In this document: positions 342 through 6,104 of the stretch, one piece after another
How the letters are laid out: each line of letters opens with the position of its first letter
How positions within the stretch are numbered: the stretch's first letter is position 1
IMG/VR virus record: IMGVR_UViG_2917865565_000003
Coordinates: 1-10,282 of that record
Source of the DNA: a virus
Lineage: Duplodnaviria > Heunggongvirae > Uroviricota > Caudoviricetes
Strand: one strand, 5' to 3'
DNA length: 10,282 nucleotides
Translations under genes and position numbers: made by a program
The notes under the pieces: generated by a model
Database searches by the model: none
Seen by the model: only the letters and a program-made list of their open reading frames with translations
What the model was told of the DNA's origin: nothing

Positions 342-623
342 TCAGGCCTCGAAGAATTCGCCGTTCTTCGGGGCTTTTTCTTTTGTCAGGTAATCGGCAA
401 GCCGCTTAGTCAGTTCAGCCATTTCATCGTCTTCGATTCCGTATTCCAGAACAGCCAGCATCATGCTTACCTGCGAGAAGAAACCATTCTTCCATCGGCT
501 TACCTGGTATTCCGGAACCCCCATCGCGCGAGCGAATGTCTTCTGCCCCATCAGTGCCAGTTTGTTCAGCAAGGCTGACTCGATGCGAGCCGCTTTCTTG
601 CTTTTAGTTGCAATAGTACCCAT
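342..623 (-). CDS. cII: CII-like transcriptional activator (93 aa)
   Basis: Translation contains RIESALLNKLALMG…SRWK…SMMLAVLEYGIEDDEMA, matching lambda CII (…ALRIESALLNKIAMLG…SRWKR…SMLLAVLEWGVVDDDMA, from memory). AAGGAA Shine-Dalgarno upstream; position between cro-like gene and O. Confidence 0.85.
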   Translation of the reverse strand: MGTIATKSKKAARIESALLNKLALMGQKTFARAMGVPEYQVSRWKNGFFSQVSMMLAVLEYGIEDDEMAELTKRLADYLTKEKAPKNGEFFEA

Positions 624-739: not shown

Positions 740-970
740 TTAAGCGGCCATTAATTCAGGCCAGATGCTTTCCCAATCAACCGGATGAAGGTCTTTGCGA
801 GTCACTTCACCATTGCTGAACTTCTCAATCAGAACACAAAGTGCTGCGCCCAATTCATGATTACGGCTAAGTGCTTTCCTCAAATAGCCGATAGAAGTTC
901 CGCACTTGGTGGCAAATTCTCTCTGCTCTTCCAGTGAAAGGGAGTTCAGATACAAGCGGAGTTCTTCCAT
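740..970 (-). CDS. Cro-like HTH regulator (76 aa), functional Cro assigned by position
   Basis: Divergent from cI across the operator region and followed by nutR then cII. AAGGAG 7 nt upstream of ATG 970..968. Putative HTH around EQREFATKCGTSIGYLRKAL. Not lambda Cro by sequence. Confidence 0.65.
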   Translation of the reverse strand: MEELRLYLNSLSLEEQREFATKCGTSIGYLRKALSRNHELGAALCVLIEKFSNGEVTRKDLHPVDWESIWPELMAA

Positions 971-1002: not shown

Positions 1003-1031
1003 AGTTTACCTGTAGGTAAAAAGCAAATCAA
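1003..1031 (-). promoter_or_regulatory. pR-like promoter for cro/cII/O: -35 TTGATT (1031..1026), 17-bp spacer, -10 TAAACT (1008..1003)
   Basis: Hexamers read on the minus strand; the -10 overlaps operator 1005-1020 and the -35 overlaps the degenerate site. Confidence 0.55.
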
Positions 1032-1060
1032 TACCCATAGGTTATTTACCGGCAGGTAAT
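1005..1060. promoter_or_regulatory. OR operator cluster: TTTACCTGTAGGTAAA (1005-1020), degenerate AATACCCATAGGTTAT (1030-1045), TTTACCGGCAGGTAAT (1045-1060)
   Basis: Palindromic 16-bp sites between the divergent cro-like and cI starts. The same consensus recurs at OL (2172-2187, 2197-2212). Centre-to-centre spacing of the first two sites (25 bp) equals that of the two OL sites. Confidence 0.7.
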
Positions 1061-1081
1061 CAAAGATAGAATTAAATCATG
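1042..1081 (+). promoter_or_regulatory. pRM-like promoter with leaderless cI start: -10 TAGAAT (1067-1072), weak -35 near 1042-1049, cI ATG at 1079
   Basis: Only 6 nt separate the -10 from the cI ATG and there is no Shine-Dalgarno upstream (GAATTAAATCATG), implying a leaderless mRNA as in lambda pRM. Confidence 0.5.
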
Positions 1082-1765
1082 GATAAATACGAACAAAGAC
1101 GACTAAGGCTGATAGAGATAAGAGACCGATTCTGTAATGGAAAGGCCTCAGAGTTGGCTCGTCGAATAGAAAGGGAACCATCATACGTTTCCAGAATGCT
1201 GTATCCGGAAGGAAAAAGCGGAAAAAAACGCATTGCTGACGATATGATGGAACTAATTGAAAAATCTTTTAATCTCCCACGCGGATGGATGGACATGCTT
1301 GTAGATGGTAAAGCTGGAGCTACAGACCATCTTGAGTTTGCGGGTAACGTTCGTGCGGGTTTTGTTCCGGTAATTGGTGAAGCCGTTTTGGGAGTTGATG
1401 GCTCAGTGGATATGATTGAATTCAGATCCGGTTGGTTAAGCATCTACAGCGGCGATAAAGATGCTTACGGTCTGAAGGTTAAGGGTGACAGCATGTGGCC
1501 AAGGATTCAGTCAGGAGAATATGTTGTTATTGAACCAAATACGCCAGTACATCCAGGTGATGAAGTCTTTGTAAGGACCAAAGACGGTCACAACATGATA
1601 AAGATCATGAACAAAACAAGAGACGGTGATTATCAGTTTAGTAGCATAAACAGTGATCACCGCCCAATCACTCTTCCTGTTGAAGAAGTTGATAAAATGC
1701 ATTTTGTTTCAGCTATTGTGAAACACACCAGGTACGTAGACCAGGACGATCTGCCAAAAGTTTGA
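1079..1765 (+). CDS. cI: CI-type prophage repressor with C-terminal S24 (LexA-like) autopeptidase domain, 228 aa
   Basis: Divergent from the cro-like gene across the operators. C-terminal half contains GDSMWP (Ser nucleophile motif) and a downstream Lys region (NMIKIMNK), typical of LexA/CI self-cleaving repressors. N-terminal domain is unlike lambda CI. Confidence 0.85.
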   Translation: MDKYEQRRLRLIEIRDRFCNGKASELARRIEREPSYVSRMLYPEGKSGKKRIADDMMELIEKSFNLPRGWMDMLVDGKAGATDHLEFAGNVRAGFVPVIGEAVLGVDGSVDMIEFRSGWLSIYSGDKDAYGLKVKGDSMWPRIQSGEYVVIEPNTPVHPGDEVFVRTKDGHNMIKIMNKTRDGDYQFSSINSDHRPITLPVEEVDKMHFVSAIVKHTRYVDQDDLPKV

Positions 1766-1779
1766 GGATAAAGCAGCAA

Positions 1780-2076
1780 ATGTTTATACCCGGCATAGTA
1801 GTCGCTGTTGTAATCATCTGCTTCATATGGGCACAGTTATCTCCTGTAAGCTCTAAGCATACAGCTGAACTCATGAGGAAGAAGCACCTTATACATGAGG
1901 CAGAATCGATAATTAAAAAGTTCAAAGGCATGTCATACGACGACATGTCATCAGAGCAGATTGCTATGTATAAATGCGCCATTGAGCGCCTTGACTACTT
2001 AAACGGACTCAAACCCAAACACACCCCAGTAGAATCAAAATTGCCGCAATGGCCAAGCAATCCAAATAGCTTCTGA
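1780..2076 (+). CDS. Small single-pass membrane protein (98 aa from ATG 1780), hypothetical, in the rex position
   Basis: Same frame as track ORF 1762..2076, whose TTG start overlaps the cI stop. ATG at 1780 with GAGGA at 1764-1768. One hydrophobic helix FIPGIVVAVVIICFIWAQL, then a charged soluble tail. Followed by an intrinsic terminator. Confidence 0.6.
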   Translation: MFIPGIVVAVVIICFIWAQLSPVSSKHTAELMRKKHLIHEAESIIKKFKGMSYDDMSSEQIAMYKCAIERLDYLNGLKPKHTPVESKLPQWPSNPNSF

Positions 2077-2087
2077 CATCTCCTTTC

Positions 2088-2109
2088 AGCCCGCAAAGCG
2101 GGCTTTTTT
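2088..2109 (+). terminator. Rho-independent terminator ending the cI operon
   Basis: Stem AGCCCGC / GCGGGCT with AAA loop, followed by TTTTTT (2104-2109). Confidence 0.75.
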
Positions 2110-2129
2110 ATATCAATCCAAAAAATTAA

Positions 2130-2214
2130 TTACCTGAAAATTCAAGCAGGTAAACTCTCACATCAATTTTATTTACCTACAGGTATAGACAGCAGTTTTA
2201 CCTGTAGGTATATT
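2130..2214 (+). promoter_or_regulatory. OL/pL: operators TTTACCTACAGGTATA (2172-2187) and TTTACCTGTAGGTATA (2197-2212); pL -35 TAGACA (2186-2191), 17-bp spacer, -10 TATATT (2209-2214); extra half-site pair TTACCTG (2130-2136) / CAGGTAA (2147-2153)
   Basis: Same operator consensus as OR. Promoter hexamers overlap the operators and point toward nutL and N. Confidence 0.7.
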
Positions 2215-2285: not shown

Positions 2286-2302
2286 AGCATTCAAAGCAGA
2301 AG

Positions 2303-2422
2303 GCTTTGGTGTGTGTGATACGAAACGAAGCATTGGCCGGAAGTGCGAATCCGGATTAGCTGCCAATGTGCCATTGCGGGGTGTTTTCGTTCAGGACTAC
2401 GACTCACACACACAACCAAAGC
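2303..2422 (+). other. Long-range stem in the N leader (GCTTTGGTGTGTGTGA … TCACACACACAACCAAAGC), equivalent to the RNase III-processed leader structure of lambda N
   Basis: The two arms are complementary with one bulge and enclose about 85 nt with further internal pairing (CCGGA…TCCGG). Lies between nutL and the N Shine-Dalgarno. Confidence 0.5.
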
Positions 2423-2442: not shown

Positions 2443-2769
2443 ATGGATGCACAAACACGCCGCCGCGAACGTCGCGCAGAGAAACAGGCTCAATGGAAAG
2501 CAGCAAATCCCCTGTTGGTTGGGGTAAGCGCAAAACCAGTTAACCGCCCTATTCTCTCGCTGAATCGCAAACCGAAATCACGAGTAGAAAGCGCACTGAA
2601 TCCGATAGACCTTACGGTGCTGGCTGAATACCACGAACAGATTGAAAGCAATCTGCAACGTATTGAGCGCAAGAATCAGCGCACATGGTACAGCAAGCCA
2701 CGGAGTGAAATGGGTGTGACTTGTGTTGGTCGCCAGAAAATGAAATTAGGCAGCAAACCACTTATTTGA
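2443..2769 (+). CDS. N: Antitermination protein N (108 aa)
   Basis: MDAQTRRRERRAEKQAQWKAANPLLVGVSAKPVNRPILSLNRKPKSRVESALNPIDLTVLAEYH… is essentially lambda N. AGGAG at 2431-2435. The track ORF starting at 2311 is an upstream in-frame extension through the leader. Confidence 0.9.
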   Translation: MDAQTRRRERRAEKQAQWKAANPLLVGVSAKPVNRPILSLNRKPKSRVESALNPIDLTVLAEYHEQIESNLQRIERKNQRTWYSKPRSEMGVTCVGRQKMKLGSKPLI

Positions 2770-2780
2770 GAGGAATTAAT

Positions 2781-3404
2781 ATGTCATCAATCCGCTTAAC
2801 AACGAGAATGAAAGAGGAAATCGCTCGTAACGCTTTAATTAAGTCTGGGGTTTTCACTGAACTTGAAGAAGTAACAAAGTTAAAGAACCAGCTTGCACTT
2901 GACGCCAGAGTTATTGCGTTTGGCGGTAAAAAGAAAACTGAGGAAGTGGATCAGTTATCATCCAAGTTGGTAGCTATAAGTGAAGAACTTGAAAAGATGG
3001 GATGTTCATTTTACTCATACGATGTTCGTTCTACTTCAATTTATCTGACTGTATCTGGCAGAAGGGTTGGATGGCATTCATATGGGAAAGACGGCAACGG
3101 CGAAGATATATTGCTCCCTACTCCAACCAAAGATAAATGCATGTTTGACGCAGAACACGAAATAACAAAAAGGTTTGATGAAATCTGCGCATTGCAACAA
3201 AACCTTGAAGCCTTGAAAAAGGATATCGAATCAAATGTATGGGCTGCTTTGAACTCAGTCACAACAGTTAAGCGACTTATTGAAGTTTGGCCTGAAAGCA
3301 AAGAATTGCTACCAAAAGAAGCAGATAAAGCAAGTACAGCACTTCCTGCTTTACGGGTAGAAGATTTGAATAAGATGATTGGACTTCCTTCCGAGGCCGC
3401 ATAG
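2781..3404 (+). CDS. Hypothetical protein (207 aa from ATG 2781), unknown function
   Basis: ATG 2781 with GAGAGGA upstream, 11 nt after the N stop. Same frame as track ORF 2721..3404. Predicted largely helical with charged stretches. No motif I recognise. Confidence 0.6.
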   Translation: MSSIRLTTRMKEEIARNALIKSGVFTELEEVTKLKNQLALDARVIAFGGKKKTEEVDQLSSKLVAISEELEKMGCSFYSYDVRSTSIYLTVSGRRVGWHSYGKDGNGEDILLPTPTKDKCMFDAEHEITKRFDEICALQQNLEALKKDIESNVWAALNSVTTVKRLIEVWPESKELLPKEADKASTALPALRVEDLNKMIGLPSEAA

Positions 3405-5807: not shown

Positions 5808-6104
5808 ATGCCAGCGCCTCTGTATGGTGCGGATGACCCGCGCCGCTGTTCCGGCAATTCCGTATCGGAGGTGCTGGATAAATTCAGAAAAAACTACGAC
5901 CTGATAATGTCGCTACCGCAGGAAACGAAAGAGGAAAAGGAATTTCGCCATTGTATATGGCTTGCAGAGAAAGAAGAACGCGAGCGAATTTACCAGACAT
6001 CAATCCGACCATTCCGCAAAGCCACATATACCCACTTCCCTGAATATATCGACCCGCGCCTGCGTAATTACCGCTCACGCTATGGCGCTATCAGTAATGA
6101 CTGA
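5808..6104 (+). CDS. Hypothetical protein (98 aa)
   Basis: ATG 5808 with AAGG 8 nt upstream. Charged, helical-looking product. Same strand and tight spacing within the early-left operon. Confidence 0.55.

What the first reader, a model, noticed from the sequence alone, without database searches (positions are those of the whole stretch)
2130..2212. Operator architecture: two canonical OL sites plus a stretched half-site pair upstream
OL contains two well-spaced 16-bp operators matching the OR consensus TTTACC-N4-GGTAAA. Upstream, the same half-site sequence occurs as TTACCTG (2130-2136) and CAGGTAA (2147-2153), but separated by 10 bp rather than forming a canonical site. This may be a non-canonical third operator, a site for long-range OL-OR looping, or a binding site for a different protein. 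Together with OR it defines an immunity specificity distinct from lambda.
Basis: seen in the sequence. Interest (0 to 1): 0.45.

Follow-up and report, generated by a model that had tools for sequence, protein, structure and literature searches.

The report
Split third operator upstream of pL
Upstream of the two normal repressor-binding sites that shut off this prophage's leftward early promoter lies a conserved pair of repressor half-sites set one extra DNA turn apart. It is probably an unusual third operator, and binding has not been tested.

Summary
The window is the immunity region of a lambdoid prophage 98.6% identical to coliphage mEp043, drawn in reverse of the lambda map. OL1 (2197-2212) and OL2 (2172-2187) overlap the -10 and -35 of pL. 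TTACCTG (2130-2136) and CAGGTAA (2147-2153) are exact and 10 bp apart.

The pair is not chance. I scanned a viral collection with a probe anchored only on OL2 plus the pL -35. Of 29 diverged lineages with TTTACC-type operators, 22 (23 with an ATAACC variant) keep both half-sites at the same spacing (ATTACC-N14-GGTAAA) and the same distance from OL2. The sequence between them, the gap to OL2 and everything further upstream diverge.

The OL2-proximal half changes with immunity type: GGTAAA here, GCTAAA or GATAAx in sister groups. That points to CI or Cro as the binder. The distal half abuts an A-tract shared with all relatives and with lambda at the same distance from pL.

Best reading: a split OL3 equivalent, its halves two helical turns apart, bound by CI through its flexible linker. 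Binding, stoichiometry and function are inferred only.

Main rival: only the proximal half matters. An IHF-like core overlaps it.

The related 933W repressor system is reported to lack OL3.

The parts
2088..2110 (+). Intrinsic terminator ending the cI operon (cI plus ORF 1762-2076). It marks the upstream limit of the pL control region in this lineage.
   Evidence: Terminator scan: 7-bp stem with 6 GC pairs, followed by a T run. In diverged relatives the homology starts only downstream of this point.
2120..2128 (.). A-tract AAAAAATTA, starting at -102 from the pL start. It is a generic element shared by every immunity type examined and by lambda, where AAAAAATAAATT starts at -101.
   Evidence: 1.44 bits per column across 29 lineages. 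In lambda, a UP element next to OL is reported to act on pL and, through the CI loop, on pRM (statements in PMC3708714 and PMC8053113). Equating this A-tract with that UP element is my inference.
2129..2136 (+). Distal half-site ATTACCTG, in left-half orientation; centre at -90.5 from the pL start.
   Evidence: Scores 11.1 bits on the operator half-site matrix and is identical to the right half of OR3. Present at -43/-44 from the OL2 start in 26 of 29 lineages; the ACC core is invariant in the 24 lineages aligned.
2137..2146 (.). 10-bp A/T-rich spacer AAAATTCAAG. Only W-TCA-A is conserved. The IHF-like core ATTCAAGCAGGTA (2140-2152) has 2 mismatches to WATCAANNNNTTR.
   Evidence: Spacer variants include AAAATTCAAG, ATTTTTCAGT, TAATTTCAAC and AAATATCAAT. 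An IHF-like match sits at the same position in 20 of 29 lineages, with 1 mismatch in 8 of them.
2147..2154 (-). Proximal half-site CAGGTAAA (TTTACCTG on the minus strand), in right-half orientation; centre at -70.5.
   Evidence: Scores 12.6 bits. Present at the same position in 23 of 29 lineages. The homologous position carries GCTAAA or GATAAx in sister immunity groups, matching their own operators, and GTACG in a CGTAC-type phage.
2155..2171 (.). 17-bp gap between the proximal half and OL2. The sequence is variable and the length is fixed.
   Evidence: 0.95 bits per column and no indel among the 23 lineages with the inverted pair. A 1-bp deletion in its T run occurs in strain W444; MSB1_9D shows the same 64-bp match but was not aligned.
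2172..2187 (.). OL2, TTTACCTACAGGTATA, overlapping the pL -35.
2186..2214 (+). pL: -35 TAGACA, 17-nt spacer, -10 TATATT. The start is inferred at A2222, by homology to the lambda pL transcript ATCAGCAGGACGC.
   Evidence: Promoter scan, 10 of 12 matches. mEp043 GenBank 'putative PL' annotation. Lambda sequence.
2197..2212 (.). OL1, TTTACCTGTAGGTATA, overlapping the pL spacer and -10.
1005..1060 (.). OR: OR1 1005-1020, OR2 1030-1045, OR3 1045-1060. This is the reference set that defines the half-site (T/A)(T/A)TACC.
   Evidence: The half-sites are conserved and the central 4 bp are free in five lineages whose CI is 78-100% identical.
1079..1765 (+). cI repressor, 228 aa. Helical N-terminal domain to about residue 72, hypervariable linker containing the Ala-Gly cleavage motif (LEFAG, about residues 85-89), and Peptidase_S24 domain at 104-204.
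   Evidence: 99.6% identical to mEp043 cI.
740..970 (-). cro, 76 aa, YdaS-like HTH; the other protein expected to read these operators.

Best explanation
The stretched pair is a split OL3 equivalent. It consists of two full-strength CI half-sites whose centres are 20 bp apart (two helical turns, so they face the same side of the DNA) instead of the normal 10 bp. It sits at -92 to -69 from the pL start, between OL2 and a generic A-tract. In the sister immunity groups the homologous position holds an ordinary-geometry third operator, TTAATC-N5-G(C/A)TAAA, 33 bp from OL2. In the TTTACC group, the hexamer that should be the distal half of that operator (AATTCA, TTTTCA or ATATCA) lacks the ACC core that is invariant in all 50 operator halves examined, and it coincides with a conserved WATCAA (IHF-like) motif. 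A consensus half-site is found instead one helical turn further out.

I infer that a CI dimer occupies it, held together by its S24 C-terminal domains, with its two HTH domains reaching the separated halves through the 15-30-residue variable linker. The fixed 17-bp distance to OL2 suggests this is stabilised by contact with the dimer on OL2 or by an OL-OR loop. By analogy with lambda OL3, the likely roles are to add a third CI-bound position for long-range OL-OR interaction and pRM autoregulation, and to place CI next to the A-tract.

Shown here: the sequence, its conservation, its fixed geometry, and covariation of the proximal half with immunity type. Inferred: that CI rather than Cro is the binder, that one dimer spans both halves, and every functional consequence.
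For: 1. Half-site quality. The two halves score 11.1 and 12.6 bits on a matrix in which ACC is invariant in 50 of 50 operator halves; ATTACC is exactly the right half of OR3.

2. Unbiased comparative sample. I scanned the viral collection with TTTACCNNNNGGTATAGACA, which is OL2 plus the -35 and says nothing about the upstream DNA. Adding the cI-anchored loci and clustering at 92% gave 29 lineages. Of these, 26 have a half-site of at least 8 bits at -43/-44 from the OL2 start, and 23 have the inverted partner at -25. No lineage has a different inverted spacing.

3. Local enrichment. Half-sites of at least 8 bits occur at 39.5 per kb in this 45-bp target, against 1.5-1.9 per kb in 300-bp flanks of the same loci.

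4. Module boundary. In lineages with different upstream genes, homology begins about 9 bp upstream of the distal half. Column information is 0.29 bits upstream, against 1.52 bits for the distal half and 1.30 bits for the proximal half.

5. Covariation with specificity. The position homologous to the proximal half carries GCTAAA in 9 of 9 lineages whose OL1 is TTTAGC...GCTAAA. It carries GATAAA, GATAAT or GATATT in the 6 lineages whose OL1 is TTTATC...GATAAA (in L313, whose OL1 is TTTATC...GCTAAA, a GATAAT lies at -16 rather than -22). It carries GTACG in a CGTAC-type phage.

6. A second case. Two TTTATC-type lineages (L317, L387) carry ATTATC-N14-GATAAT, a stretched pair in their own specificity.

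7. Class-specific constraint on the distal half. It is not conserved at the homologous place in the sister class, so its conservation in the TTTACC class is not explained by the generic element alone.

8. Orientation variants. Four lineages carry the proximal half in direct orientation with the same centre, 23 bp from the centre of the OL2 left half. This fits flexibly tethered DNA-binding domains and does not fit a rigid symmetric dimer.

9. Linker. The region between the conserved LPRGWMD (about residue 72) and the S24 domain (from 104) is hypervariable among lineages.
Against: No binding data exist for this repressor. The distal half overlaps a generic element: other immunity types and lambda have AAATTCCT, AAATTC or AAATCACCT at that spot, one indel away from AATTACCT, so part of its resemblance to a half-site may be inherited rather than selected. 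The whole stretch of about 40 bp is fairly conserved, with the spacer at 1.18 bits, so conservation is not confined to the two halves. Most sister-class lineages manage with a proximal half plus a near-canonical partner and have no distal half. A conserved IHF-like core overlaps the proximal half. One natural prophage (E. coli K56-43-un) carries TTGCC in the distal half. The best-studied relative, the 933W repressor, is reported not to bind cooperatively and to have no OL3 (PMC3317979, PMC5977221). I found no solved structure or usable model of this repressor: PDB sequence search gave no match, and the single-sequence AlphaFold model had pLDDT 40.
Confidence: 0.55

Rival explanations
1. Only the proximal half is functional. 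It is the good half of a weak OL3 of normal geometry (AATTCA-AGCA-GGTAAA, 2139-2154, centre 33 bp from the OL2 centre), filled through cooperativity with OL2. The distal ATTACC belongs to the generic A-tract element and resembles a half-site largely by descent.
For: In the sister classes the homologous site is a normal-geometry operator at the same 33-bp distance (TTAATC-N5-GCTAAA, TTGAAC-N5-GATAAA) and there is no distal half. Other immunity types and lambda have AAATTCCT or AAATTC at the distal position. Operators with one consensus half and one poor half are normal in this family (OR2, OL2).
Against: The would-be partner hexamer (AATTCA, TTTTCA or ATATCA) lacks the ACC core that is invariant in 50 of 50 real halves. 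The distal ACC is invariant in the 24 aligned TTTACC-type lineages, whereas the same columns are unconstrained in the sister class. L317 and L387 repeat the N14 pair in another specificity.
Confidence: 0.25
2. The element is a host-factor site with no CI binding: an IHF site (A-tract, then about 10 bp, then WATCAANNNNTTR) and/or a distal UP element that stimulates pL, as described for lambda.
For: The A-tract lies at -102, as in lambda at -101. A WATCAA-like core is at a fixed position in 20 of 29 lineages, with 1 mismatch in 8, and AATCAA occurs in most sister-class lineages. [quoted passage not shown] 1998, cited in PMC3708714).
Against: IHF cannot explain why the proximal hexamer switches between GGTAAA, GCTAAA, GATAAx and GTACG in step with the phage's own operators. 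In the window the core has 2 mismatches, in an A/T-rich context where such matches are common. The two roles can coexist; this rival fails only as the sole explanation.
Confidence: 0.08
3. The element is the binding site of another phage-encoded protein, or of Cro only, that happens to share the half-site.
For: Cro is expected to read the same operators. Nothing here separates CI from Cro.
Against: The genes flanking the element differ between lineages that keep it; only cI, cro and the operators travel with it. A 76-aa Cro has no flexible linker with which to span 20 bp.
Confidence: 0.05
4. The element is a chance inverted repeat or an RNA/DNA hairpin with a 7-bp stem and 10-nt loop.
For: It folds at -7 kcal/mol, z = -3.55.
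Against: It lies downstream of the cI-operon terminator and upstream of the pL start. Five of the 7 pairs never or almost never vary, and the outer pair breaks in 3 lineages; 97% of cells are paired against 95% in shuffles. Four lineages have the halves in direct orientation, where no stem is possible. Conservation in 22-23 of 29 lineages excludes chance.
Confidence: 0.02

Closest known systems
Lambda OL3 (third left operator, next to the OL-proximal UP element)
   Same: It is the outermost CI position upstream of pL and abuts an A-tract that starts about 101-102 bp from the pL start. OL1 and OL2 are centred at about -17 and -42 in both phages. In lambda this position serves OL-OR looping and pRM control (PMC5977221, PMC8053113).
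   Different: Lambda OL3 is a normal 17-bp symmetric site 20 bp from OL2. Here there is no canonical site between the terminator and OL2 (none with 3 or fewer mismatches). The two halves are 20 bp apart instead of 10, and the element is centred 38 bp from OL2.
933W and H-19B repressor-operator systems (closest characterised CI relatives, about 50% identity)
   Same: CI has an S24 C-terminal domain of the same family. There are two strong OL operators 25 bp apart, and the pL upstream scaffold is shared (A-tract, W-TCA).
   Different: 933W operators are 15-bp CGTAC-type sites, and the phage is reported to have no OL3 and no cooperativity (PMC3317979, PMC5977221). I found no clean extra half-site in the 933W-like phi24B sequence. 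H-19B has only a GATATT at the proximal position. The window's family keeps two extra consensus halves.
HK022 OL (OL3 separated from OL2 by 53 bp, with loop-like DNase I pattern)
   Same: It is a lambdoid precedent for a third left operator placed well away from OL2 and thought to work by short-range DNA bending or looping (PMC8053113).
   Different: As far as the cited text says, HK022 OL3 is an operator of normal geometry. The repressor families and specificities differ. I did not compare the sequences.
Regulators that bind half-sites at variable spacing or orientation through flexible linkers (AraC; phage 16-3 C repressor, with 4-bp and 6-bp spacers). Cited from my own knowledge, not checked in the library.
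   Same: The proposed mode is the same: dimerisation domains are separate from the DNA-binding domains, and half-sites are tolerated an integral number of turns apart or flipped.
   Different: These are unrelated protein families. For an S24 lambdoid repressor, no such +10-bp site has been described to my knowledge. This is an analogy only.

Membership tests
Lambdoid OL/pL operator region | Two or more inverted-repeat sites matching the phage's OR operators | tested here: met
   OL1 and OL2 each have 1 mismatch to TTTACC-N4-GGTAAA. OR1 has 0 mismatches and OR3 has 1.
Lambdoid OL/pL operator region | Operators overlap the -35 and -10 of a sigma-70 promoter reading into nutL and N | tested here: met
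   TAGACA-17-TATATT at 2186-2214. boxB GCCCTGAAGAAGGGC at 2272-2286 and lambda-type N from 2443.
Lambdoid OL/pL operator region | Repressor (and Cro) occupancy of the sites | not testable with these tools
   No binding data found for mEp043 immunity.
Canonical third operator (lambda-type OL3) | A complete two-fold symmetric site with the same half-site spacing as OL1 and OL2 | tested here: not met
   No TTTACC-N4-GGTAAA match with 3 or fewer mismatches in 2111-2171. The hexamer 10 bp from either half is AATTCA, which lacks the invariant ACC.
Canonical third operator (lambda-type OL3) | Outermost CI site adjoining the A/T-rich element upstream of pL | tested here: met
   The A-tract at 2120-2128 abuts the distal half and lies at the same distance from the pL start as in lambda.
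Canonical third operator (lambda-type OL3) | Takes part in OL-OR looping and pRM repression | not testable with these tools
   Needs reporter or loop assays.
CI/Cro recognition element of this immunity group (any geometry) | Half-sites indistinguishable from operator halves | tested here: met
   11.1 and 12.6 bits, against a training range of 7.0-12.7.
CI/Cro recognition element of this immunity group (any geometry) | Sequence changes in step with operator specificity in related phages | tested here: met
   Met for the proximal half: GGTAAA, GCTAAA, GATAAx and GTACG each match the phage's own operators. Only partly met for the distal half: it is class-specific, and L317/L387 carry ATTATC.
CI/Cro recognition element of this immunity group (any geometry) | Conserved position and spacing across independent lineages | tested here: met
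   22-23 of 29 lineages have N14 and a 17-bp gap to OL2.
IHF binding site | WATCAANNNNTTR core with an A/T tract 5' of it | tested here: inconclusive
   2 mismatches in the window (2140-2152). 1 mismatch in 8 lineages, and the same position in 20 of 29 lineages. The context is A/T-rich, which makes such matches common.
Intrinsic terminator or structured RNA | Stem supported by compensatory changes, a T run, and a transcribed location | tested here: not met
   No T run follows the stem. No real covariation. Direct-repeat variants exist. The element lies between a terminator and the pL start.

The most novel reading that the evidence does not exclude
An S24 lambdoid repressor dimer binds two half-sites set one extra helical turn apart, and in some lineages flipped, by spreading its flexibly tethered HTH domains. 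This split operator arose because an overlapping host-factor (IHF-like WATCAA) motif stopped the canonical distal half of OL3 from co-evolving when the repressor's specificity changed from an ATC core to an ACC core. The split site would then serve as the OL3 partner for OL-OR looping and would place CI against the A-tract (UP-like) element.
Probability: 0.25. Interest if true: 0.65.

Novelty: new variant of a known kind. Interest (0 to 1): 0.5.

Why it matters
Lambdoid genetic switches are the textbook model for cooperative repression and DNA looping, and the presence, absence and placement of OL3 is one of the features that differs between them. The characterised relative, 933W, is reported to lack OL3, and this has been linked to how readily Shiga-toxin prophages induce.

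This family shows a conserved extra repressor-recognition element of non-standard geometry in a wide set of prophages: the same immunity region is in 52 of 5,426 complete E. coli genomes, and there are 29 diverged lineages in viral metagenomes. If CI binds it, that would show that repressors of this type can use half-sites separated by an extra turn. Operator searches that look only for canonical palindromes would then undercount sites.

It also gives a simple, testable case of operator-repressor co-evolution under an overlapping constraint.

Tried and rejected
- Chance was rejected by shuffle statistics and by conservation.
- The three other TTACCTG copies in cII (387, 466, 499) are Q-V-S codons, not shared by relatives, and irrelevant.
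- The hairpin or terminator reading has no covariation, and direct-repeat variants exist.
- The scan found no second promoter in 1950-2300 apart from pL.
- A canonical OL3 is not present.
- The literature search found no paper on mEp043 operators and no description of split or half operators in lambdoid OL regions. The two key 933W papers (PMC524894, PMC3133280) are not held, so I relied on statements in PMC3317979 and PMC5977221.
- The PDB sequence search with CI gave no match.
- Single-sequence AlphaFold of CI gave pLDDT 40 and was not used, beyond noting helices within residues 3-75 and no regular structure at 76-111.
- The IHF consensus matching is suggestive but weak in A/T-rich DNA.
- I could not locate the mapped lambda pL IHF site in the held literature.

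Full report
**What the window is.** The window is a lambdoid early-left region drawn in the opposite orientation to the lambda map.
- Genes and sites, in order: cII (342-623, minus strand), cro (740-970, minus strand), OR (1005-1060), cI (1079-1765), a 104-aa ORF (1762-2076), an intrinsic terminator (2088-2110), pL with OL (2172-2214), nutL boxB (2272-2286), lambda-type N (from 2443), then Nmad5, abc2 and int.
- Region 700-2500 is 98.6% identical to coliphage mEp043. That GenBank record annotates only a 'putative PL' and no operators.
- CI is 99.6% identical to mEp043 CI. It is only about 50% identical to the H-19B and 933W-type repressors.
- The same immunity region is in 52 of 5,426 complete E. 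coli genomes.

**Checking the observation.**
- OL2 (2172-2187) and OL1 (2197-2212) each differ from TTTACC-N4-GGTAAA only by GGTATA. They are 25 bp apart and overlap the -35 (TAGACA) and -10 (TATATT) of the only promoter-like site in the region.
- OR carries three sites of the same type.
- TTACCTG (2130-2136) and CAGGTAA (2147-2153) are exact with 10 bp between. On the 6-bp half-site this is ATTACC-N14-GGTAAA, against N4 in an operator, so the half-site centres are 20 bp apart instead of 10.
- Shuffles give 0.91 expected TTACCTG against 8 seen, and 0.15 expected N14 pairs (at most 1 mismatch) against 3 seen, with one exact.
- A weight matrix built from 50 operator halves of five lineages has ACC invariant. 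It scores the two halves at 11.1 and 12.6 bits, near the top of the operator range.

**Conservation.**
- Relatives found through CI already showed the pair 42 bp upstream of the OL2 start in lineages whose CI is only 78-85% identical. Their upstream genes are unrelated, and homology starts about 9 bp before the distal half.
- To avoid circularity I scanned the viral collection with a pattern that specifies only OL2 plus the pL -35. Clustering at 92% gave 29 lineages.
- Of these, 26 have a half-site of at least 8 bits at -43/-44 and 23 have the inverted partner at -25. In 22 (23 counting ATAACC, a variant also used in OR2) both are present with exactly N14.
- The spacer varies (AAAATTCAAG, ATTTTTCAGT, TAATTTCAAC, AAATATCAAT) except for W-TCA-A. 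The 17-bp gap to OL2 varies in sequence but not in length.
- Strong half-sites are about 20-fold denser in this 45-bp target than in 300-bp flanks.
- Column information is 0.29 bits upstream of the A-tract, 1.44 bits in the A-tract, 1.52 bits in the distal half, 1.18 bits in the spacer, 1.30 bits in the proximal half and 0.95 bits in the gap.
- The exceptions are informative. Four lineages have the proximal half in direct orientation with the same centre. One lineage (TTTACT-type) has a full canonical OL3 23 bp from OL2. One has a decayed proximal half.

**Who reads it.**
- The same pL scaffold (A-tract, W-TCA, two operators 25 bp apart, transcript start CATCAGCAGGA) is shared by phages of other immunity types.
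- At the position of the proximal half, those phages carry their own operator half. It is GCTAAA in 9 of 9 lineages whose OL1 is TTTAGC...GCTAAA. It is GATAAA, GATAAT or GATATT in the 6 lineages whose OL1 is TTTATC...GATAAA (one further lineage, L313, is offset). It is GTACG in a CGTAC-type phage.
- This covariation is what one expects of a site read by the immunity-specific repressor or Cro. A host protein would not produce it.
- In those sister classes the partner hexamer (TTAATC, TTGAAC) is a near-canonical left half. They therefore have an ordinary OL3 33 bp from OL2.
- In the TTTACC class the homologous hexamer (AATTCA, TTTTCA or ATATCA) lacks the invariant ACC, and a consensus half lies 10 bp further out.
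- The distal half is not conserved at the homologous place in the sister class, except in two TTTATC-type lineages that carry ATTATC-N14-GATAAT.

**What weakens the simple story.**
- The A-tract is generic. Lambda has AAAAAATAAATTC starting 101 bp before the pL start; here it starts at 102 bp.
- Other types read AAATTCCT or AAATCACCT where this family reads AATTACCT. The distal half is therefore one indel from a generic sequence.
- In lambda, a UP element beside OL is reported to act on pL with IHF, and on pRM through the CI loop (PMC3708714, PMC8053113).
- A WATCAANNNNTTR-like core sits at a fixed place overlapping the proximal half in 20 of 29 lineages. It has 1 mismatch in 8 of them and 2 in the window.
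- The element is therefore composite. Host-factor signals and repressor half-sites probably overlap.

**Rejected readings.**
- The hairpin (-7 kcal/mol) lies between a terminator and the pL start. It shows no real covariation and cannot form in the direct-repeat lineages.
- No second promoter was found.
- The cII copies of TTACCTG are codon coincidences.

**Mechanism.**
- I commit to a split OL3 equivalent bound by CI (confidence 0.55). The two halves lie on one face of the helix, two turns apart.
- CI has a conserved helical domain to about residue 72, a hypervariable stretch containing the LEFAG cleavage motif, and the S24 domain from residue 104. That tether is long enough in principle for one dimer to reach both halves. 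This is inference; no usable model or solved homologue was available.
- The invariant 17-bp gap to OL2 suggests contact with the OL2-bound dimer or a defined place in an OL-OR complex.
- The main rival (0.25) is that only the proximal half counts.
- That at least the proximal half is a CI/Cro contact I rate at about 0.8.

**Comparison and novelty.**
- The two-operator OL and the OR are ordinary for a lambdoid phage, and the phage is already sequenced.
- The conserved +10-bp pair is, as far as the held literature shows, undescribed.
- It differs from lambda OL3 (canonical, 20 bp from OL2), from 933W (reported to have no OL3) and from HK022 (distant OL3).
- I rate it a new variant of a known kind, of moderate interest. 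The comparative evidence is strong and the function is untested.

Noticed in passing
window 1030-1060: OR2 (AATACCCATAGGTTAT) and OR3 (TTTACCGGCAGGTAAT) share base T1045, so their centres are only 15 bp apart, while OR1-OR2 is 25 bp. This is kept in all lineages of this immunity type. H-19B has the analogous arrangement (16 bp between 17-bp sites). It suggests that OR2 and OR3 occupancy may interact sterically.
   Followed up: partly
window 1067-1081: A likely pRM -10 (TAGAAT, 1067-1072) places the transcript start at about the A of the cI ATG (1079). This would make cI mRNA leaderless, as in lambda. OR2 is centred about -41.5 from that start, as in lambda. This is inference from the sequence only.
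   Followed up: no
window 2291-2400 vs L001 (mEp043) 3090-3310: Between nutL and N the window is lambda/434-like and about 111 bp shorter than mEp043, which carries unrelated sequence there. This is a mosaic junction inside the N leader.
   Followed up: partly
window 1762-2076: A 104-aa ORF overlaps the cI stop codon, in the position of lambda rexAB, and is followed by the terminator. It has no Pfam family and matches only phrog_10450 (unknown function). It may be a lysogen-expressed accessory or exclusion gene.
   Followed up: partly
window 387-393, 466-473, 499-506: Three extra operator-like half-sites lie inside cII. They encode Q-V-S (twice) and are absent from relatives with the same immunity but a different cII, so they are chance.
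   Followed up: yes
L108, L136, L168, L172 (about 23 bp upstream of OL2); L134; L071; L232: Alternative third-site layouts occur in related phages. In four lineages the proximal half is flipped to direct orientation. L134 has a full canonical OL3 (TTTACTCATAAGTAGA). L071, of a different specificity, has a full OL3 (AATACCTTATGTATT) abutting the A-tract. L232 has TTTAGC-N7-GCTAAA, where its operators have N5.
   Followed up: partly
L083 2671-2694 (E. coli K56-43-un); L396 (E. coli W444): Natural variants exist. K56-43-un has TTGCCTG in the distal half. W444 has a 1-bp deletion in the T run between the proximal half and OL2 (MSB1_9D shows the same 64-bp match length but was not aligned). This could be a homopolymer sequencing error.
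   Followed up: partly
L090, L101, L112, L158, L166 (63-65 bp upstream of OL2): Five lineages have a further TTTACC- or TATACC-like half-site right after the upstream terminator's T run. It may be a by-product of the sequence TTTTTTATACCC.
   Followed up: no
window 2721-3404: The first gene after N encodes an Nmad5 (nucleotide modification associated domain 5) protein. abc2 (anti-RecBCD, 5808-6104) and a lambda-type integrase (from 9209) lie further along the pL operon.
   Followed up: no
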